Of a DNA stretch of 50,971 nt, positions 3,095 through 18,268 are shown in pieces (the first letter of the stretch is position 1; the number at the start of each line of letters is the position of its first letter). Source of the DNA: Escherichia phage herni. The notes beneath the pieces are model-generated. The model was not told the DNA's origin and ran no database searches. It saw nothing but the letters and a program-made list of their open reading frames with translations. The stretch lies in sequence record NC_049823.1. One strand, 5' to 3'. The position numbers and the translations under genes are program-made.

Positions 3095-4027
3095 TTAGAG
3101 AAGAGATTCAGGTTTGTAAACCTTCCTCTCTATCCCTTGCCTGTAATTATCATTAATCGGCATCATAATTTCAAGACCTCTTTCCTCAGCAGCAATGATC
3201 GCGTCACGGTCTGTACTCTTACAGACAACTCGCATTCTTCTGTTGCCTTTATACCTGTAAGCTACAATCTCAATGTTAGTTGCATCAAAGCAGGCCCAAA
3301 CCTCTTGACCAGTTGCAAGGTGAATATGTTGCGCATCAATCCAGTCAACGCAAAGATAGATCGTCTTATCTGTGCTTCCTGTTCTCACAATTGACCCGCG
3401 CGTGTAGTCCTTTGCGAGAAAAGACTTATTACCTTCTTCATCAATGAAAAGCACATTGCACATTTCATCATCAATTTCATCTGAATGTACCAGGTAACAT
3501 GGGAGCGCGTGAATGTATCGACCATCTTTAACGCCGCATTCATAATGACCATCTTCAGGCGGGTATATTCCTTCATATGTGCTTAACGGCGTGCGATCAA
3601 ATTTTAGTGTTTTTGACATAACGCGCTCGCAGCATTCATGGCTTGCCTGTTTCCCAAATGAATAACCAGAATCACGAGATACTCGCTTATTTGCCTTGAT
3701 TCTATAGTCCTGCGGAACTTTTCCAAGAAAGCGGCCCAAAATATTGATCACTTCGCTGTAAGGTTCTCCGGTTAGTTTCATGATCCAACCAATTCCAGTA
3801 TCATTACCGCACACGTTGCAGATCGCACCGCCATCGCCTTTTTTATCGCAAAGTTTATCCGTCCACCTGAAGCGATCCTTTCCGCCGCAGTGGGGGCAAG
3901 ATTGATGCTTGCCGTTAAAAACTTCATTTGGAAGACCGCAAATACTTTGTAGCGCCTCACGCCATAATCCCTGCATATATGGGAGAACATCTTCCTTTTG
4001 ATAAACCATAAAGTTTTCGTTATTCAT
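3095..4027 (-). CDS. putative DNA primase (zinc-ribbon plus Toprim-like)
   Basis: CPHCGG...CNVCG zinc-ribbon near N-terminus, acidic DxD-like motifs downstream; start at MNNENF (ATG 4027, GAGGTG Shine-Dalgarno); sits beside the helicase locus. Confidence 0.5.
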   Translation of the reverse strand: MNNENFMVYQKEDVLPYMQGLWREALQSICGLPNEVFNGKHQSCPHCGGKDRFRWTDKLCDKKGDGGAICNVCGNDTGIGWIMKLTGEPYSEVINILGRFLGKVPQDYRIKANKRVSRDSGYSFGKQASHECCERVMSKTLKFDRTPLSTYEGIYPPEDGHYECGVKDGRYIHALPCYLVHSDEIDDEMCNVLFIDEEGNKSFLAKDYTRGSIVRTGSTDKTIYLCVDWIDAQHIHLATGQEVWACFDATNIEIVAYRYKGNRRMRVVCKSTDRDAIIAAEERGLEIMMPINDNYRQGIERKVYKPESLL

Positions 4028-4083
4028 ATGCACCTCAAACAAAAAAAGCCTGACAGATGATAACATCATTCCAGGCATTGTTT

Positions 4084-4557
4084 TTAGCAATTAGTGCTTT
4101 CAGGTTTATACAGGAATCCGCCAGGTTCATAATCTGACATTCTTACCACTCGCAACATTTCACGCTTATCACATCTCTTTGTGAGCGGTTTGCCATTGGA
4201 ATCAAATCGCAGGTCTGGACGACAGAATGATGCGCGATAGCCTTGACATCCATATTTTTTGTAATCGTTATGCACCTTTTGAGCGCCAGCGGCTGAAATC
4301 ATACCACGAACGCGCCACTGATTTACAGTTTGCTGGCTAACGTTAAGACGTTTTGCCATTGCTGACACGCTTCCGTAATACTCAATAAGGATGTCAAGTC
4401 GCGCTTTTAGTCCGGCGCGCACTTCATCTTTTAAAACATAGTATCCCGTAGGGCGCTTGCGCTTCTTCTTGTCCTTGCCTCTTCGAGTTCCGTTATTGCC
4501 ATTAATTGTTCGCTTGTCAATCTTTCCTGTTGATACTGCGATTCGTTGCTCTTTCAT
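4084..4557 (-). CDS. helix-turn-helix DNA-binding protein
   Basis: ORF track; predicted HTH segment AKRLNVSQQTVNQWRVRGMIS; very basic N-terminus; GGAGA Shine-Dalgarno. Confidence 0.55.
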   Translation of the reverse strand: MKEQRIAVSTGKIDKRTINGNNGTRRGKDKKKRKRPTGYYVLKDEVRAGLKARLDILIEYYGSVSAMAKRLNVSQQTVNQWRVRGMISAAGAQKVHNDYKKYGCQGYRASFCRPDLRFDSNGKPLTKRCDKREMLRVVRMSDYEPGGFLYKPESTNC

Positions 4558-4570
4558 TATTCATTCTCCA

Positions 4571-4616
4571 ATAGCATTTTTTGTTAAACGATGATTTAAT
4601 GATTGTGTATTATACA
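4571..4616 (+). promoter_or_regulatory. conserved intergenic motif copy (ATAGCATTTTTTGTTAAA) plus ATTATA hexamer 22 nt downstream
   Basis: Matches the repeated motif; co-oriented with the helicase gene. Confidence 0.4.
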
Positions 4617-4646
4617 CACCAAATGGCATTACTCAAAGGTTTTAGA

Positions 4647-6686
4647 ATGATTCCAAACATTGAAAAGCAAATATCAGCACTTGGTGAAGCGGTAATTAAA
4701 TCCATTCAGGAGCGATTCACTGTTGGAGAGATTGTGCCTTACCCTTACCAGTGCGTTGCATACGCTGAGATCGCAAAGCGTATGAAAAATTATGAGCATC
4801 CATTCTTTGTTAAAGCGTCCGTATCGGCTGGCAAAACATTGATGTTTGCAATGGTTGCTCACCAGTGCCGGAAAATGGGCTTGAAAATGATGGTCCTTGC
4901 TCGCCAGGCTGAGATTGTGGATCAGGATTCTGAAGAGATAACAAATATTGGTGTGCCGAACTCCATCTATTGTGCAGGACTGAAGACAAAAAGCGCATAC
5001 TTTCCGATCGTTGTTGGTTCTGAGGGAACTGTAGTTAATGGACTGTTTAAAGCGCTTGGCGACTATGTTCCGCACGTTATCGGGATTGACGAGTGTCACC
5101 AGGTGGATTGGGAAGACCTTGCCGACGCAATAGAGAAAGACGAATCATTTTTACAAATGACGACGAAGAAAGGCGAAAAAGTACCAAATCCAGATTATGA
5201 CATAACGAGCGATAACGAATGCGAAGAGTTCCTGATTGGTGAGGATGGCTTACCAATGGAGGGAACAGGCCGCACGCAATACACTGTTATTATCATGGAA
5301 ATGATGCGACGTTGCAGGAAAGCATATGGTCATGAACTGCGCATCTTTGGTATGACTGGTTCGGAGTTTCGCGGAGTAGTCCCGATCCTAGTAGAAGACA
5401 AAAAACAGAAAGGATTCTGGCGTGAACAGGTTACTAATATTGACACCAACTACCTGATCAAATTCGGTTCTGTTGTGCCAACAAATTTTGGCGACGTTGG
5501 CGATCTAGGGTATGACCTTTCAGAGTTTGAGGCATCCAGCGAGGATGGCGTCGCAGACTTTGACGCTAAAACGCTTCGCAGGATGGAACAAAAAATTCAT
5601 GAAGAAGCGACCATGACAAAGCGCATCATGGCGAAAGTTCACGAGATCTGTAAAAACCGTAACGGCGTACTTGTGACATGTGCAGGAGAAAGGCATTGCA
5701 AAGAGGCAGCGGCGGCATTGCCACCTGGAACGACTTACAGGATCATTACTGGTAAGACTGGCGACAACCAGCGCAAGGAGTGGTTGAGGGAAGCATACGA
5801 AGGGAAGGTAAAATACATCTTCCAGGTTCAGGCGCTAACTACTGGCGTTAACGTGCCGTTTTGGGATACGTCTGTTATTCTGCGTAAGATTGGATCGCTA
5901 ACTTTGCTGATTCAGCTTTTAGGACGCGGAATGCGACTTCTTAAGAAATGGCATAAGGAACAAGGCTTCAAGAAAGATGATCACCTGGTTATGGATTTTT
6001 CAGGAACGATGGACGAGTTAGGTGAGCTTTATTTTGATCCGATACTGGAACAGGCGCAACATCAGAAGCGATTCAGGAACGGTAAAGATCCGAAGCCTTG
6101 TCCTGTTTGCGGAACTCTTAATAGCTATTATGCTCGTCGTTGTATGCACGTAGACGAAAACGGCAACAGATGCGAGTGGTTCTTTAAATTCAGGACATGT
6201 GATGATCAGATTGACACGCGCACTAAAAAGATTATTCAGCGCGGTTGTGGAACGAAAAATGATATTGCGGCCAGGGTATGCAGACATTGCGACATGTCAT
6301 TGATTGACCCTAACGAGAAGTTAAGCGGAAAGCACTACACAAAAAACGACTGGTTTCAGGTGCAATCTTTCTCGGTTGACATGACGAAAAACCAGAAAGG
6401 GATAATATTTAATTATGAGCTTTCCGATGGCATAGACACTTTCAGGGCGAGAGAGATATTTTTCCCTGAATCTGAGAGCCAAATTTGCCGCGCAAAATGG
6501 CGAAGCGTTGCTCTTAAGCACATACCAGATCGCCGTGTTGCTGGCATGGTGGCGAGCTATCGTAATGCACGTAAAATCATGCAATATGTGAATCACATCA
6601 TGCCACCATCGCGTGTAACTCACCGCAAGACTAGCAAGGGTGAAGATAATTTGTACAAGAAGGACTTTAATTATGGCAATGACTGA
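4647..6686 (+). CDS. superfamily 2 DNA helicase with C-terminal zinc-ribbon region
   Basis: Walker A SVSAGKT, DExH box IDECHQ, C-terminal CxxC pairs; start ambiguous (ATG 4623 with no Shine-Dalgarno, or ATG 4647 with AAAGG; track start TTG 4581 lies inside the upstream motif). Confidence 0.7.
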   Translation: MIPNIEKQISALGEAVIKSIQERFTVGEIVPYPYQCVAYAEIAKRMKNYEHPFFVKASVSAGKTLMFAMVAHQCRKMGLKMMVLARQAEIVDQDSEEITNIGVPNSIYCAGLKTKSAYFPIVVGSEGTVVNGLFKALGDYVPHVIGIDECHQVDWEDLADAIEKDESFLQMTTKKGEKVPNPDYDITSDNECEEFLIGEDGLPMEGTGRTQYTVIIMEMMRRCRKAYGHELRIFGMTGSEFRGVVPILVEDKKQKGFWREQVTNIDTNYLIKFGSVVPTNFGDVGDLGYDLSEFEASSEDGVADFDAKTLRRMEQKIHEEATMTKRIMAKVHEICKNRNGVLVTCAGERHCKEAAAALPPGTTYRIITGKTGDNQRKEWLREAYEGKVKYIFQVQALTTGVNVPFWDTSVILRKIGSLTLLIQLLGRGMRLLKKWHKEQGFKKDDHLVMDFSGTMDELGELYFDPILEQAQHQKRFRNGKDPKPCPVCGTLNSYYARRCMHVDENGNRCEWFFKFRTCDDQIDTRTKKIIQRGCGTKNDIAARVCRHCDMSLIDPNEKLSGKHYTKNDWFQVQSFSVDMTKNQKGIIFNYELSDGIDTFRAREIFFPESESQICRAKWRSVALKHIPDRRVAGMVASYRNARKIMQYVNHIMPPSRVTHRKTSKGEDNLYKKDFNYGND

Positions 6687-7092
6687 TAAAGGCGATTATC
6701 TGGAGTTTTACGAAAGAGATCCGACGGATACGCTAAAAGAGGAATCACACCAGATCGGGGCGTTTCAATGGTTGACTTATGCTTACCCTGAATTGCTGGC
6801 ATGGCATACGAAAAACGAGGGCGACAAGGGGATCGCCACCGCAATGATGGATCAGCAAGCCGGACTCGTTAAGGGCGTAAGTGATTTTATCATCCTGATT
6901 GGATTAAAAGGCCGTTATCCGTTTGCAGCAATTGAGATGAAGCGCGTCAATAAGTCTGGAAAGGGTAAGGCTTCACCAGTCAGTAAGGAGCAAAAAGCCT
7001 TCTTACGACGTGTGCGCGAGCTTGGCGGATTCGCTGCCGTAACATACGGATATAAGCAATTCATGATCGCTGTAGAATACATGATGAAATAG
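6673..7092 (+). CDS. VRR-NUC domain nuclease
   Basis: PD-(D/E)XK-like core GVSDFIIL...IEMK; start at MAMTDKG (AAGGA Shine-Dalgarno) overlaps the helicase stop. Confidence 0.55.
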   Translation: MAMTDKGDYLEFYERDPTDTLKEESHQIGAFQWLTYAYPELLAWHTKNEGDKGIATAMMDQQAGLVKGVSDFIILIGLKGRYPFAAIEMKRVNKSGKGKASPVSKEQKAFLRRVRELGGFAAVTYGYKQFMIAVEYMMK

Positions 7093-11375: not shown

Positions 11376-11564
11376 GATACGCTTTACAGTAACCAACAAA
11401 ACGCCGTCCTCATCACACAAATTATGCTCTGATATGTTAAACGCTCGCATGTCAGAATGAATTAGCGTTAACATTGCGTGCATGAAGTCTTCATGTGAGA
11501 TTGAACTTACGGCGCAGAACTTCAATATTTTGTCTATTAGCATTTGACGTAAACAGTTCTTCAT
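11370..11564 (-). CDS. hypothetical protein; start uncertain
   Basis: ORF track; overlaps the upstream gene by about 70 nt unless it starts at an internal Met (MHAMLTL, 11474). Confidence 0.3.
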   Translation of the reverse strand: MKNCLRQMLIDKILKFCAVSSISHEDFMHAMLTLIHSDMRAFNISEHNLCDEDGVLLVTVKRIE

Positions 11565-11883
11565 CGCTCATTTCTCCGATCCGTAAAACATCCCTAACCC
11601 ATTCGTTTTGCATACCTTCCAGGCTGTAAAGTTCAAACGAGAAAGGGCGATTTGCGGATCCTTTCTTACACCAGAACTTTCCACCAACTCCATCAAGATA
11701 ACCAGCTGTCATCATTCTTGCGCAAAACTCTTTTGAAACGGCAGTAGCAAACATTCTCGGCGTAAATCCTGCGGCCCTTGCGAGCCGCTCACATTCTCTA
11801 TGCTGAAAGATAAATTTTGCTATATGTTGACGCGTAAACCATTCGAATGACTCACACCAGCGATACAGATCCAGAAGAAACAT
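11491..11883 (-). CDS. hypothetical protein (130 aa)
   Basis: ORF track; start overlaps the stop of the upstream ATPase gene (TAATTATG). Confidence 0.45.
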   Translation of the reverse strand: MFLLDLYRWCESFEWFTRQHIAKFIFQHRECERLARAAGFTPRMFATAVSKEFCARMMTAGYLDGVGGKFWCKKGSANRPFSFELYSLEGMQNEWVRDVLRIGEMSDEELFTSNANRQNIEVLRRKFNLT

Positions 11884-11885
11884 AA

Positions 11886-13470
11886 TTACCCCAGCAATGT
11901 TGGATTTACAAAAACAACGCCATTAATCACACAAATATAATTTCTTTCTTCAAGCATCGGCAGCAGTTGCGTTTCCATACGCTTCATTACGCCAGCCTGG
12001 CCAACAAACGGCTTAACTTTTCGTGCAGCCTCATATATGGCGCGAACATTCAAGATCCCATTGTTAGCCTTACCGTGTCGAGTGATAATCTCGATTAGTT
12101 TACCCATTTCAGCATCATCACCAGCATAGCCAGAAGCGTTGGCGGAGCTAATGTATGTTTTGCTCAACTCGCTAAACATCAGCAGTGCTTCTTGAACGGT
12201 TTCAACTTCAATCTCTTTCGACTTCTGAGGGTATCCACCAGGATTAAACCAGTCGCGGATAGTGTGCAAAACCGAAGCAATCCTGATCACCTGCTTATCC
12301 ATTTTGCCAAGAGCACCGCGCAGCATTGTATGCGAATACTTTCCGCCATCAGCAAGGTGCGGCTCCATCTCCTGACGAGCCATGTTAAGAACTCGCATTG
12401 CGGATTTGCTGATCTTAAGCTGGATGTTTGATTCACTCATGATGTTATGGATCAGCTTAAAATATTGACTTTTCAGTTCTCCATCAACAGGCTCATAAGT
12501 AGAATCACCGTTATCATCAACAAACTTTCGACGACCTAAAAATGATTCCTCACGCACAAGCAAATAACGCTCACTCACACCGATACCGCGCGATCCTGCA
12601 TCCATGATGGCATTGATTGTTTCATCCTGGGCAATCACCGCCATACAGCCAAGAGCTTTAAAACTCATATTGTTGTCAGCGTTTGCACGAGCTATAGAAA
12701 CATGACCATGATCCCATGCTTTCAGCACAAGTTCGCTGTTGGTTTTACGTTCGCTATTAGCATATGTCAGACCTAAAAGGCTGTTAATACTCGTTGCCTC
12801 GTCTGAAATCACAGCAAAGTTACCCTGGCGATTGTTGATTCTTGCAAGTCCTTCCGGCGTGGTGTCGGACACAGGGAAAACAATGTCACACATCTTTTCC
12901 AATTTTTCTTCCAGATCTTCTTTCTCCTGGTACAGAGATTCCATATCAGCGCCGGAGCGCTCGCTTTTCATCTCTTTTGCAAGACCTGCCAACTTTGCCT
13001 GAATCTTTTTTCTTTCCTTCTTTCGCTGATCGTTAATTCTTTCCACTTCTGCAACCATTGGAGCAAGTGCCAGGCTGTTAACGGCAGATTTACCAGTTGA
13101 AGGAGGCTGACTTGTGACAACATAAAGAGCGGTCGGCTGATCCGTTCCGTGATACTCAACCGTGAAGCGTCCAAGCATTGCAGCAGACACGCAGCCGATA
13201 AAATGCATATATGCCGATGATTCAGGGAACTGAACTGAGCGAGCAATGTTGCGCGCCAACTTACCAACAACATCAACATCATTGCCAAGAGAAATTACAG
13301 GGTAGCGATCATTTCCGTTATTAACATCATTAACCTCACCCCAAAAGCTGGACGATTGACGGTATCCGTTTGCCTGAATGGACACGCGCACCGGAGACAA
13401 TCCTTGTGCATCAGCTAATTCGATAATTTGTTTTGGTGTTAGTTTGTTGGTTTCAAACGAAAAATTCATT
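11886..13470 (-). CDS. P-loop ATPase, DnaB/DUF3987-like (possible helicase or primase-associated)
   Basis: Walker A QPPSTGKSAV resembling the DnaB H1 motif, Walker B-like AVISDEA; start at MNFSFETNKL (ATG 13470, AAGGAG Shine-Dalgarno). Confidence 0.55.
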
Positions 13471-13524
13471 GATGATAACTCCTTTTTTTGATGCGGCAAT
13501 AATACCGCACCAATGCTACCCGCA

Positions 13525-13544
13525 TTTAACAAAAAATGCTATTT
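13525..13544 (-). promoter_or_regulatory. conserved intergenic motif (minus orientation)
   Basis: TTTAACAAAAAATGCTATTT; contains the TAG stop of the gene ending at 13539. Confidence 0.4.
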
Positions 13545-13760
13545 GATCCGCTCTATGCTAACTAAGATTTTTTCTGGTTCCCTTGCGCTATGGCAATGCG
13601 CGGTTACGGAATCAGCAAAATCAAAATAAAGTGATTTGTGGTAAGAAAGACCAATCAGCCATCCAACCATCGTTTTCTTTATTGGCCTGACTATATCGCC
13701 AGGCTTGAAGGTTTTTGTTGCTGAATGAGTCACCTTATAGCGATATTCAGCCTTGATCAC
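13539..13760 (-). CDS. hypothetical protein (73 aa)
   Basis: ORF track; start overlaps the upstream stop. Confidence 0.45.
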   Translation of the reverse strand: MIKAEYRYKVTHSATKTFKPGDIVRPIKKTMVGWLIGLSYHKSLYFDFADSVTAHCHSAREPEKILVSIERIK

Positions 13761-14143
13761 TTATACATAGCCTCAAATAAATGACAGCCACCAGCGGAAA
13801 ATCCTACTTCTTCGCGGTATAGCGTCCAGCGGTCGCCAGCTTCATCAAAAACATAACCAGCAACAGCACCAAGCGCGCGACCTTGCTCAATCTGGTAGCG
13901 CTTTCCTTCTTTGAAATGCTTTTTGCACGGGATCTTGTGATCTACAAATGTGCATTTAATTGTTTTTGTCTTGATATGACGATAGTCAGACTCAACAGCG
14001 TTTTGCCACTTGCTACCCTTTGTAATGCTCTTTACCTGGAATTGTTCCAACTCGATCACATCATCGCTACCAGCAATTTTTTCGTATACAGCTTTATAAC
14101 GACCGTTCATCAAAACGTTGGTTTTATTGCAGATAACTTTCAT
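13757..14143 (-). CDS. hypothetical protein (128 aa)
   Basis: ORF track; AAGGAGA Shine-Dalgarno upstream of ATG 14143. Confidence 0.5.
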   Translation of the reverse strand: MKVICNKTNVLMNGRYKAVYEKIAGSDDVIELEQFQVKSITKGSKWQNAVESDYRHIKTKTIKCTFVDHKIPCKKHFKEGKRYQIEQGRALGAVAGYVFDEAGDRWTLYREEVGFSAGGCHLFEAMYK

Positions 14144-17934: not shown

Positions 17935-18115
17935 ATATACCCATAAAATCAATAAGTTAGTTATATATGTATTTATATTTGTTATTTACTGTTGTGCTTG
18001 TTCTGTGGGTATATGGTGGTGTGGTATTGTTTGTGGTGATATATATGTGTGATTGTATATTTTTTAATCAATTGTGATGTGTGGTGATTTTTGTATGTAT
18101 ATATATGGGTATGAA
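17935..18115. repeat. AT-rich then TG-rich low-complexity element (copy A), homologous to 47450-47650
   Basis: AAATCAATAAGTTAG..TATATAT.TATTTATATTTGTT core followed by (TG)n-like tracts. Confidence 0.5.
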
Positions 18116-18239
18116 GTAATCCTCCGTCAACCAAGTCAACAAGGTCATTTTTAACATAAAAACCAATGACTTAACTGAAGCATTTTGTTATCTTTAAACG
18201 CGCCACGTGCCAAAAATTGTTGTTAAAACACAAAATATA

Positions 18240-18268
18240 TTGACATGCAGGAAAGGCAAGGCAATAAT
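18240..18268 (+). promoter_or_regulatory. sigma70-like promoter (TTGACA, 17 nt, AATAAT)
   Basis: Near-consensus -35 and spacer length about 37 nt upstream of the gene at 18305. Confidence 0.5.

What the first reader, a model, noticed from the sequence alone, without database searches (positions are those of the whole stretch)
11886..13470. DnaB/DUF3987-like P-loop ATPase among the small early genes
The 528-aa protein has Walker A QPPSTGKSAV (resembling the DnaB H1 motif ARPSMGKTA) and a Walker B-like AVISDEA, but lacks the remaining DnaB motifs in recognisable form. It is separate from the SF2 helicase and primase on the other arm, so the phage may carry two helicase-like systems or an ATPase with another role.
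Basis: partly seen in the sequence, partly recalled or inferred. Interest (0 to 1): 0.4.

Follow-up and report, generated by a model that had tools for sequence, protein, structure and literature searches.

The report
T1-type phage MCM-like replicative helicase (DUF3987)
The gene is real and encodes the DUF3987-type ring helicase that all T1-like phages carry and that databases already label "DNA helicase"; its fold resembles the archaeal/eukaryotic MCM motor, not bacterial DnaB, so the finding is ordinary, with one correction to its interpretation.

Summary
The window is the complete genome of Escherichia phage herni (Drexlerviridae, T1-like). The ORF exists on the minus strand at 11886..13469, not 13470, and encodes 527 aa, not 528. 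It has a strong AAGGAG ribosome-binding site. Both quoted motifs are present: QPPSTGKSAV at residues 121-130 and AVISDEA at 219-225.

It is a clear DUF3987 member (Pfam E=2e-43; PHROG 2373 "DNA helicase" E=2e-244). It is 100% identical to a protein NCBI already names "DNA helicase", and it occurs in 919 phage records, including T1 gene 9.

K127, E224, R261, Q281, R301 and K389 are invariant or nearly so across 137 diverse relatives. Relatives are fused to primase modules, or lie directly beside the homologous primase gene. This phage has no DNA polymerase and no other ring helicase. Its SF2 helicase is RadD-like and sits next to a VRR-NUC nuclease.

Best reading: a hexameric replicative helicase that works with the phage primase and the host polymerase. 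That role is inferred, not shown. The gene is already known, so interest is low.

The parts
11886..13469 (-). CDS of the 527-aa DUF3987-family AAA+ helicase (stop codon at 11886-11888); orthologue of phage T1 gene 9
   Evidence: ORF list; Pfam DUF3987 E=2e-43 over residues 82-431; PHROG 2373 'DNA helicase' E=1.7e-244; 100% identical to 'DNA helicase [Escherichia phage herni]'; T1 ST9 lies at the syntenic position
13479..13484 (-). Ribosome-binding site AAGGAG, 9 nt before the ATG at 13469
   Evidence: Sequence read directly; homologues all begin at this Met
13170..13469 (-). N-terminal, mainly helical region (residues 1-100). It is poorly conserved in its first ~60 residues. In relatives this position holds primase-linked modules
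   Evidence: DSSP of the model: helices 12-22, 26-34, 37-42, 67-79 and 83-98; alignment; relatives carry DnaG Zn-ribbon/DUF6371, PriCT_2 or DnaB_N here
13080..13109 (-). Walker A / P-loop QPPSTGKSAV (residues 121-130); K127 is invariant
   Evidence: Coordinates; K127 in 137/137, Q121 in 133/137 and P122 in 132/137 relatives
12885..13079 (-). Long antiparallel helical hairpin inserted after the P-loop helix (residues 131-195). It is a family-wide feature
   Evidence: Model helices 127-169 and 173-192; 47-85 residues (median 77) separate K127 from the TPE motif across 137 relatives
12795..12815 (-). Walker B AVISDEA (residues 219-225); E224 is invariant
   Evidence: Strand 217-222 in the model; E224 in 137/137; D223 is D/A/S across the family
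12651..12713 (-). Beta-hairpin immediately before the sensor-1 strand (residues 253-273), with invariant R261 near its tip. Candidate pre-sensor-1 DNA-binding hairpin
   Evidence: Strands 253-259 and 268-280; R261 in 137/137. Assignment as PS1 hairpin is inferred from topology, not from a superposition
12561..12629 (-). Sensor-1 candidate Q281 (12627-12629) and arginine-finger motif GVSERYL (residues 297-303, 12561-12581)
   Evidence: Q281 in 136/137; G297 and R301 in 137/137. The functional assignment rests on position after strand 4 and on resemblance to the MCM SRF motif (inference)
12240..12494 (-). Helical lid domain (residues 326-410) with RGALGKMDK; invariant K389 and mostly conserved R384 (sensor-2 candidates)
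   Evidence: Model helices 330-344, 355-372, 381-388 and 390-406; K389 in 137/137, R384 in 99/137
11889..12239 (-). C-terminal helical linker plus winged-helix domain (residues 411-527)
11491..11883 (-). 130-aa protein of unknown function. Its ATG lies 2 nt after the helicase stop. Candidate accessory factor (inferred from linkage only)
   Evidence: ORF; PHROG 2794, unknown function; a homologue follows the helicase in 80/80 Drexlerviridae loci, within 14 nt in 75 of them; found in 833 phage records
3095..4090 (-). Stand-alone Zn-ribbon/TOPRIM-type DNA primase, the inferred working partner. The ORF limit is given; the annotated start in the near-identical phage G29-2 is about 60 nt shorter
   Evidence: Pfam Zn_Ribbon_Prim E=1.4e-10 and PHROG 510 'DNA primase' E=8e-108; 29% identical (E=2e-38) to the primase whose gene overlaps a DUF3987 gene by 4 nt in L087

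Best explanation
The gene encodes the replicative DNA helicase of this T1-like phage. It is a DUF3987-family AAA+ ATPase whose motor domain is built like MCM ('superfamily 6'), not like DnaB.

Inferred mechanism: subunits assemble into a ring. ATP binds at subunit interfaces, between the P-loop (K127) and Walker B (E224) of one subunit and the arginine finger (R301) of its neighbour. Hydrolysis moves the basic beta-hairpin (R261) in the central channel, which pulls single-stranded DNA through and unwinds the fork.

The phage's separate Zn-ribbon/TOPRIM primase (3095-4090) would prime on the unwound strand. The phage SSB would coat the strand. The host polymerase would synthesise DNA, because the phage encodes no polymerase.

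The C-terminal winged helix and the variable N-terminal region are the likely docking or DNA-recognition modules. The RadD-like SF2 helicase with its VRR-NUC neighbour is a second, recombination/repair-type system.

Shown here: family membership, an intact and conserved ATPase site, the MCM-like fold, the winged helix, and the genetic linkage to primases. Inferred: ring assembly, helicase activity, polarity, partnership with the primase, and the role in replication.
For: - **Family:** Pfam DUF3987 E=2e-43; PHROG 2373 'DNA helicase' E=1.7e-244.
- **Catalytic residues:** across 137 representatives at roughly 25-40% identity, K127, E224, R261, G297, R301 and K389 are at 100%, and Q281, T204 and E206 at 98-99%.
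- **Rosetta-stone fusions:** relatives carry a DnaG Zn-ribbon plus DUF6371 (P0158), PriCT_2 (P0237) or the DnaB N-terminal domain (P0205) in front of the DUF3987 domain. Viral fold hits include primase-polymerase and TOPRIM fusions.
- **Gene neighbourhood:** in phages whose protein is 35-39% identical, the gene abuts the primase gene. Examples are TW1 (DUF3987-primase-SF2 helicase), GP-1, L086, and L087 (HTH-primase-DUF3987 with a 4-nt overlap). The L087 primase is homologous to the window's primase (E=2e-38).
- **No alternative in this genome:** every ORF of 500 aa or more is assigned (tail fibre, SF2 helicase, this gene, TerL, tape measure, J), so there is no DNA polymerase and no other ring helicase. 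The SF2 helicase is RadD-like (NCBIfam NF053632, E=2e-58, below its cut-off) and is followed by VRR-NUC.
- **Literature:** DUF3987 was classed as a divergent MCM-related SF6 family with a C-terminal wHTH and predicted to be a phage replicative helicase (PMC4889955; PMC5862659). One PriCT-DUF3987 protein (AgaPH) was shown to be an oligomeric helicase that depends on ATP and on its Walker A/B motifs, and that binds its primase-polymerase (PMC11724360).
- **Core gene:** found in 919 phage records, including T1, Tls and Rtp.
Against: - No experiment exists on this protein or any Drexlerviridae orthologue that I could find.
- In this phage family the gene is not next to the primase. It lies 7.4-9.6 kb away in 67 loci, so coupling is inferred from distant relatives.
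- The Pfam MCM model does not match at E<=1, and TM-scores to MCM are only 0.3-0.37 because MCM's N-terminal tier has no counterpart here.
- No helix-2 insert is evident in the model.
- The hairpin region (residues 231-270) has low confidence, pLDDT 55-67.
- Oligomeric state was not modelled.
- The second hairpin arginine, present in 128 of the 137 relatives (93%), is alanine here (A264).
- Related AAA+ proteins such as ComM, RavA and BrxL are not replicative helicases.
Confidence: 0.8

Rival explanations
1. It is an initiator-helicase. The same protein recognises the phage replication origin through its C-terminal winged helix, melts the origin and loads itself, as P4 alpha, SaPI Rep or papillomavirus E1 do. 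No separate initiator or loader is then needed. This refines the best explanation rather than replacing it.
For: A C-terminal winged helix resembles the ORC/Cdc6 winged-helix domains. No recognisable initiator or helicase loader turned up among the window's larger ORFs or the neighbours that I scanned. An AT-rich repeat-bearing intergenic region at 17945-18244 could serve as an origin.
Against: No iterons were found in or beside the gene. Winged helices in MCM and many other proteins mediate protein contacts rather than sequence-specific binding. The conserved, translationally coupled 130-aa protein or one of the many small proteins of unknown function could be the initiator or loader. No origin is mapped.
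Confidence: 0.3
2. It is a DnaB-like (superfamily 4, RecA-fold) helicase, as the first reader suggested from the P-loop resemblance.
For: QPPSTGKS looks like the DnaB H1 motif ARPSMGKT. Some relatives carry a genuine DnaB N-terminal domain (P0205). The one characterised DUF3987 helicase unwinds 5'->3' as DnaB does.
Confidence: 0.02
3. It is an AAA+ DNA translocase with a non-replicative role. One option is branch migration in recombination-dependent concatemer formation, as ComM or RuvB do. Another is takeover or counter-defence, with host DnaB doing the fork unwinding.
For: ComM, RavA and BrxL are among the structural relatives. The gene sits among small early genes of unknown function, one of which may be a Mokosh trigger, rather than in the primase/recombination cluster.
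Against: Primase fusions and primase adjacency dominate among the relatives examined. The phage already has a RadD-like helicase, VRR-NUC, exonuclease VIII, Erf and SSB for recombination. There is no meaningful match to PADLOC defence models; the only hit is a marginal coiled-coil one to JetC, E=0.005. A stand-alone primase without a dedicated helicase would be unusual.
Confidence: 0.1
4. It is a helicase loader or clamp-loader-like AAA+ ATPase that recruits the host DnaB, as DnaC or lambda P do functionally.
For: It is an AAA+ protein with a winged helix. The phage depends on the host polymerase.
Against: ORC, Cdc6 and DnaC-type proteins match only through the ~85-100-residue winged helix, whereas MCM motors match over ~250 residues. 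The invariant basic hairpin is typical of translocases. A homologue has direct helicase activity.
Confidence: 0.03

Closest known systems
DUF3987 (Pfam PF13148) helicases, e.g. AgaPH (the PriCT-DUF3987 protein of a Seonamhaeicola mobile element); phage T1 gp9 and E. coli phage AAS23 gp49 are annotated orthologues
   Same: Same Pfam family, well above threshold. Same QPxxxGKS P-loop, S-[DAS]-E Walker B, long helical hairpin insertion, ER[FY]L arginine motif and C-terminal small (winged-helix) domain. Genetic association with primases.
   Different: This protein has no PriCT domain and no fused primase module. In Drexlerviridae the gene has been separated from the primase gene by 7-10 kb and is instead coupled to a 130-aa protein of unknown function. 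A264 replaces the second hairpin arginine. No biochemistry exists for this clade.
MCM helicases (archaeal MCM, eukaryotic MCM2-7, MCM8/9) and the MCM-like staphylococcal Cch
   Different: No sequence-level match to Pfam MCM. No N-terminal OB-fold/zinc tier. No evident helix-2 insert. A ~65-residue helical hairpin follows the P-loop helix. Lysine rather than arginine is the invariant lid residue. The only tested DUF3987 enzyme moves 5'->3', opposite to MCM.
DnaB / T7 gp4 (SF4 RecA-fold replicative helicases)
   Same: Probably the same job: a ring helicase at the fork that works with a Zn-ribbon/TOPRIM primase. Some DUF3987 proteins even carry the DnaB N-terminal domain.
   Different: A different fold (AAA+ versus RecA) and different motifs. 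No sequence or structural match.
P4 alpha and other primase-SF3 helicase proteins
   Same: The window's primase is of the P4-alpha/COG4643 Zn-ribbon type. The functional logic of primase plus AAA+ helicase plus DNA-binding domain is the same.
   Different: P4 alpha fuses all modules in one chain and uses a D5-like SF3 motor. Here the primase is stand-alone and the motor is DUF3987.

Membership tests
DUF3987 (PF13148) | Match to the family HMM above the gathering score | tested here: met
   149.4 bits against a cut-off of 27, E=2.1e-43; residues 82-431 cover HMM positions 3-350 of 364
DUF3987 (PF13148) | Conserved Walker A (variant GxxxxGK[ST]) and Walker B acidic residue | tested here: met
   QPPSTGKS with K127 in 137/137; SDE with E224 in 137/137
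DUF3987 (PF13148) | [quoted passage not shown] 2016) | tested here: met
DUF3987 (PF13148) | Fusion to, or immediate adjacency with, an AEP or DnaG-type primase | tested here: inconclusive
   Not adjacent in this window (7.8 kb apart) or in 67 Drexlerviridae loci. Adjacent or overlapping in 4 of 4 more distant phage relatives examined, and fused in other relatives
DUF3987 (PF13148) | ATP-dependent DNA unwinding | not testable with these tools
   Shown only for AgaPH (PMC11724360)
MCM family proper (PF00493) | Match to the MCM HMM | tested here: not met
   No MCM hit at E<=1 in the Pfam scan. Literature reports only a profile-profile link
MCM family proper (PF00493) | AAA+ core structurally superposable on MCM | tested here: met
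MCM family proper (PF00493) | N-terminal OB-fold/zinc-binding tier | tested here: not met
   Residues 1-100 are helical or loop in the model. MCM matches cover only the ATPase part; TM-score normalised to the MCM chain is ~0.3
MCM family proper (PF00493) | Helix-2 insert and pre-sensor-1 beta-hairpins | tested here: inconclusive
   A hairpin at 253-273 before strand 274-280 fits PS1. Helix 205-215 runs straight into the Walker B strand with no insert. No superposition could be inspected, and the region has pLDDT 55-67
DnaB family (PF03796 / PF00772) | Match to the DnaB_C or DnaB N-terminal HMMs | tested here: not met
   Neither was reported at E<=1
DnaB family (PF03796 / PF00772) | RecA-type core fold | tested here: not met

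The most novel reading that the evidence does not exclude
The T1-family replisome is a hybrid. An MCM-like AAA+ ring helicase would travel 5'->3' on the lagging strand like DnaB, as reported for the one characterised DUF3987 enzyme. It would recruit a bacterial-type TOPRIM primase and hand the fork to host Pol III, making phage replication independent of host DnaB, DnaC and DnaG. It might also load itself at an origin through its winged helix, or with the coupled 130-aa protein. That would make it an AAA+ functional analogue of DnaB with a polarity opposite to every structurally understood AAA+ helicase.
Probability: 0.3. Interest if true: 0.55.

Novelty: already known. Interest (0 to 1): 0.2.

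Why it matters
For the scan it mainly corrects a label. The phage's ring helicase is an MCM-like AAA+ motor of the DUF3987 family, not a DnaB relative, and it is probably the replicative helicase. The SF2 enzyme on the other arm is a RadD-like repair/recombination helicase.

More broadly, DUF3987 proteins are very common in phages, satellites and integrative elements, with 2315 cluster representatives found here, yet only one has been assayed. T1-like phages grow on E. coli K-12 and would be a convenient system for three questions. How does an MCM-like motor cooperate with a TOPRIM primase and a hijacked bacterial polymerase? What is its polarity? How is it loaded?

None of this is surprising to a specialist. 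The prediction dates from 2016, and the gene is already annotated as a helicase.

Tried and rejected
- **Sequence searches against PDB chains.** The single protein and the 37-sequence profile gave only coiled-coil noise (augmin, designed helical bundles), so no solved close relative exists.
- **Second database search with a profile.** It returned the same 175 proteins and did not widen the family. The exhaustive representative search did widen it.
- **NCBIfam and PADLOC.** NCBIfam has no model for this protein. PADLOC gave only a marginal coiled-coil hit to JetC (E=0.005), so there is no link to a defence system.
- **Origin-like iterons.** Searches in and around the gene gave only short two-copy matches of the kind expected by chance. 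The only repeat-rich spot is the 17.9-18.2 kb intergenic region.
- **Small upstream ORFs.** I tested whether the small ORF upstream of the helicase in this phage (73 aa) and in phage TW1 (82 aa) are homologous. They show no similarity. The HTH proteins upstream of the primases in the window and in L087 also show no BLASTP similarity.
- **Literature.** Searches for T1 genetics and host dna-gene requirements, and for defence-escape mutations in this gene, found nothing usable. The supplement of the 2016 survey is not held.
- **Longer TTG start at 13532.** Rejected: it has no support from homologues, and a strong SD sequence sits before the ATG.

Full report
**What the window is.** The target protein is 100% identical to "DNA helicase [Escherichia phage herni]", whose contig is 50,971 bp, the same length as the window. 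The surrounding DNA is 99.5% identical to the Drexlerviridae (Hanrivervirus) phages vB_EcoS_G29-2 and egaa. The window is therefore a complete T1-like siphophage genome.

**Checking the observation.** A minus-strand ORF runs 11886..13532 from a TTG. The real start is the ATG at 13469. AAGGAG lies 9 nt upstream of it, and every aligned homologue starts at that methionine.
- The CDS is 11886..13469 and the protein is 527 aa.
- QPPSTGKSAV is residues 121-130 and AVISDEA is residues 219-225.
- The gene sits in a block of mostly small minus-strand ORFs.
- It is 7.8 kb from the primase (3095-4090, minus strand) and the SF2 helicase (4581-6686, plus strand). The Dam methylase, an exonuclease and the lysis cassette lie between.

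**Family.** Pfam DUF3987 matches residues 82-431 with E=2e-43, and nothing else matches meaningfully. PHROG 2373 "DNA helicase" matches end to end with E=1.7e-244, and the last ~90 residues also match a separate PHROG.
- tblastn finds the protein in 919 phage records, 904 of them at near full length. These include T1 (gene 9), Tls ("yfiJ putative ATPase"), Rtp (rtp67) and hundreds of Klebsiella T1-like phages. It is a core gene of Drexlerviridae.
- An exhaustive HMMER scan of 1.84 billion cluster representatives finds 2315 relatives at E<=0.001.
- A published description of a related Pantoea phage already lists the same trio: DUF3987 putative helicase, Zn-ribbon primase, and SSL2-type helicase plus VRR-NUC (PMC8004638).

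**Fold: MCM-like, not DnaB-like.** An AlphaFold2 model built on a 37-sequence alignment is confident (mean pLDDT 87.2, pTM 0.85). Only residues 1-6 and roughly 231-270 are weak.
- The next full-core matches are RavA, further MCM subunits (Mcm3, MCM8) and BchI; the staphylococcal MCM-like helicase Cch, ComM and BrxL also appear. All are AAA+ proteins.
- Foldseek ranks 1-43 are MCM chains.
- No DnaB, RecA, T7 gp4 or Twinkle structure appears in either list, and the Pfam DnaB models do not match.

This agrees with Kazlauskas et al. 2016. They linked DUF3987 to MCM by profile comparison, noted the C-terminal wHTH and the primase association, and proposed a replicative role (PMC4889955; see also PMC5862659).

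It is not an MCM family member in the strict sense:
- There is no sequence-level MCM match.
- There is no OB/zinc N-terminal tier.
- No helix-2 insert is evident.
- A ~65-residue antiparallel helical hairpin follows the P-loop helix. This hairpin is conserved in length across the family, with a median of 77 residues between K127 and the TPE motif.

**Is the ATPase intact?** I aligned 137 representatives (about 25-40% identical to the query) and counted residues per column.

| Residue | Conservation (of 137) | Location or assigned role |
|---|---|---|
| K127 | 137 | Walker A |
| E224 | 137 | Walker B |
| R261 | 137 | beta-hairpin before the sensor-1 strand |
| G297, R301 | 137 each | G-x-x-E-R-[FY]-L, which resembles the MCM SRF arginine-finger motif |
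| K389 | 137 | lid helix |
| Q281 | 136 | end of strand 4; sensor-1 position |
| T204 | 136 | TPE motif |
| E206 | 135 | TPE motif |

The pattern of P-loop, Walker B, hairpin with a basic tip, sensor 1, arginine finger and helical lid is what a ring-forming AAA+ translocase needs. Assigning each residue to those roles is inference from topology, because I could not inspect superpositions.

Two oddities stand out. The Walker B aspartate is D in only 54 of 137 (A or S in 77), though it is D here. The second hairpin arginine, R in 128 of 137, is alanine here (A264).

**Evidence that it works with a primase.**
1. *Fusions.* Ten longer relatives were scanned. One has a DnaG-type CHC2 zinc ribbon plus DUF6371 in front of the DUF3987 domain. 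One has PriCT_2. One has the DnaB N-terminal (primase-binding) domain. Structure hits among viral proteins include primase-polymerase, NrS-1-like and TOPRIM fusions.
2. *Neighbourhood.* In phages whose protein is 35-39% identical to this one, the gene touches the primase gene.
   - Pseudoalteromonas phage TW1: DUF3987-primase-SF2 helicase-exonuclease VIII-SSB-resolvase.
   - Klebsiella phage GP-1.
   - Metagenomic locus L086: DUF3987-primase-SF2 helicase.
   - L087: HTH-primase-DUF3987 with a 4-nt overlap.
   - The L087 primase is homologous to the window's primase (29% identity, E=2e-38).
3. *Rearrangement in Drexlerviridae.* In 80 loci the primase lies 7.4-9.6 kb downstream on the same strand wherever enough flank is present (67 loci). 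A 130-aa protein of unknown function directly follows the helicase in all 80.
4. *Biochemistry in the family.* The PriCT-DUF3987 protein AgaPH elutes as an oligomer. It unwinds 5'-tailed and forked DNA with ATP or dATP, loses activity on Walker A or B mutation, and binds its primase-polymerase (PMC11724360).

**What else the phage has.**
- The window's primase is a stand-alone Zn-ribbon primase. It covers only the first half of its PHROG profile.
- The SF2 helicase has ResIII and Helicase_C domains. It is most like the repair helicase RadD (NCBIfam NF053632, E=2e-58, below the equivalog cut-off) and is followed by a VRR-NUC nuclease.
- Exonuclease VIII, Erf and SSB lie at 47.8-50.4 kb.
- Every ORF of 500 aa or more is accounted for: tail fibre, SF2 helicase, this gene, large terminase, tape measure, J-like tail tip.

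There is thus no phage DNA polymerase and no other ring helicase. The simplest division of labour is as follows. The DUF3987 ring helicase, primase and SSB form the phage-specified part of a replisome that uses the host polymerase. The RadD-like helicase, VRR-NUC, RecE-like exonuclease and Erf serve recombination and repair.

**Rivals.**
- *Self-loading initiator-helicase using the winged helix.* This is compatible with everything seen and cannot be separated from the main reading here. No iterons were found at the gene.
- *Non-replicative translocase.* This is disfavoured by the primase linkage and by the absence of meaningful defence-model matches.
- *Loader role.* This is disfavoured because initiator-type AAA+ proteins match only through the winged helix.
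- *DnaB membership.* This is rejected.

**Novelty and score.** The gene is already annotated as a DNA helicase. The family assignment and its predicted function were published in 2016, and a family member was shown to be a helicase in 2025. What is left open is biochemical: polarity, loading, partners and host-polymerase recruitment in T1-like phages. Novelty is "already known" and interest is 0.2. The most novel reading still allowed is an MCM-like motor acting as a DnaB analogue with 5'->3' polarity in a hybrid replisome, at probability about 0.3.

Noticed in passing
window 13757-14143 (-): This 128-aa protein of unknown function (PHROG 2684) lies two genes upstream of the helicase. It is 75% identical to the syntenic 128-aa gp13 of phage SECphi27. 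Stokar-Avihail et al. report that a '128aa protein of unknown function' of SECphi27 triggers the Mokosh type I defence system. This may be its orthologue, but I could not confirm that gp13 is the protein they meant. Homologues occur in 79 of 80 Drexlerviridae loci.
   Followed up: partly
window 11491-11883 (-): The ATG of this 130-aa protein (PHROG 2794, unknown function; sometimes annotated 'YdbL') lies 2 nt after the helicase stop. A homologue directly follows the helicase in 80/80 Drexlerviridae loci, and it occurs in 833 phage records. It has no Pfam or PDB sequence match. It could be a helicase accessory or loading factor.
   Followed up: partly
window 17945-18244: This is a ~300-bp non-coding region where the minus-strand early block meets the plus-strand genes and the GC skew changes sign. 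It is AT-rich, with a 32-nt direct repeat 60 nt apart, a 12-nt tandem repeat and several inverted repeats. An 11/12 sigma-70-like promoter match lies at 18240-18268. It is a candidate divergent early control region and possibly the origin.
   Followed up: no
proteins P0205, P0158, P0237 (relatives, not in the window): P0205 joins a bona fide DnaB N-terminal domain (Pfam E=2e-22) to a DUF3987 AAA+ motor in place of DnaB's RecA-type domain. P0158 joins a DnaG CHC2 zinc ribbon and DUF6371 to DUF3987. P0237 carries PriCT_2. Seven other long relatives have 350-650-residue N-terminal extensions with no Pfam match.
   Followed up: partly
window 4581-7092 (+): The SF2 helicase on the other arm is most similar to the E. 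coli repair helicase RadD/YejH (NCBIfam E=2e-58, below cut-off). It overlaps the start of a VRR-NUC nuclease gene. RefSeq labels the orthologue 'putative HKD family nuclease'. I saw no support for that label in the Pfam scan.
   Followed up: partly
phage records MG065675, MG065640, MG065669 and others (about 21 records): Records named 'Campylobacter phage' with host Campylobacter jejuni carry helicase and neighbouring genes 94-99% identical to this E. coli T1-like phage. This suggests mislabelled hosts or contaminating coliphages in those submissions.
   Followed up: no
DUF3987 family alignment (137 representatives); window residues D223 and A264: The canonical Walker B aspartate is Ala or Ser in 77 of 137 family members, while the following glutamate is invariant. 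The RxxR pair on the putative DNA-binding hairpin is R-x-x-A in this protein, with the second arginine present in 128 of the 137 representatives.
   Followed up: no
T1 locus L004 16086-16625; pSf-1 hits H13/H14; Shigella phage 2019SD1 hit H66: HNH homing-endonuclease genes sit immediately beside the helicase gene in T1 (gene 8) and within the matched region in pSf-1. In 2019SD1 the helicase match is broken into five pieces. The locus seems to be a hotspot for mobile endonuclease insertion or for assembly errors. The window itself has no such insertion.
   Followed up: no
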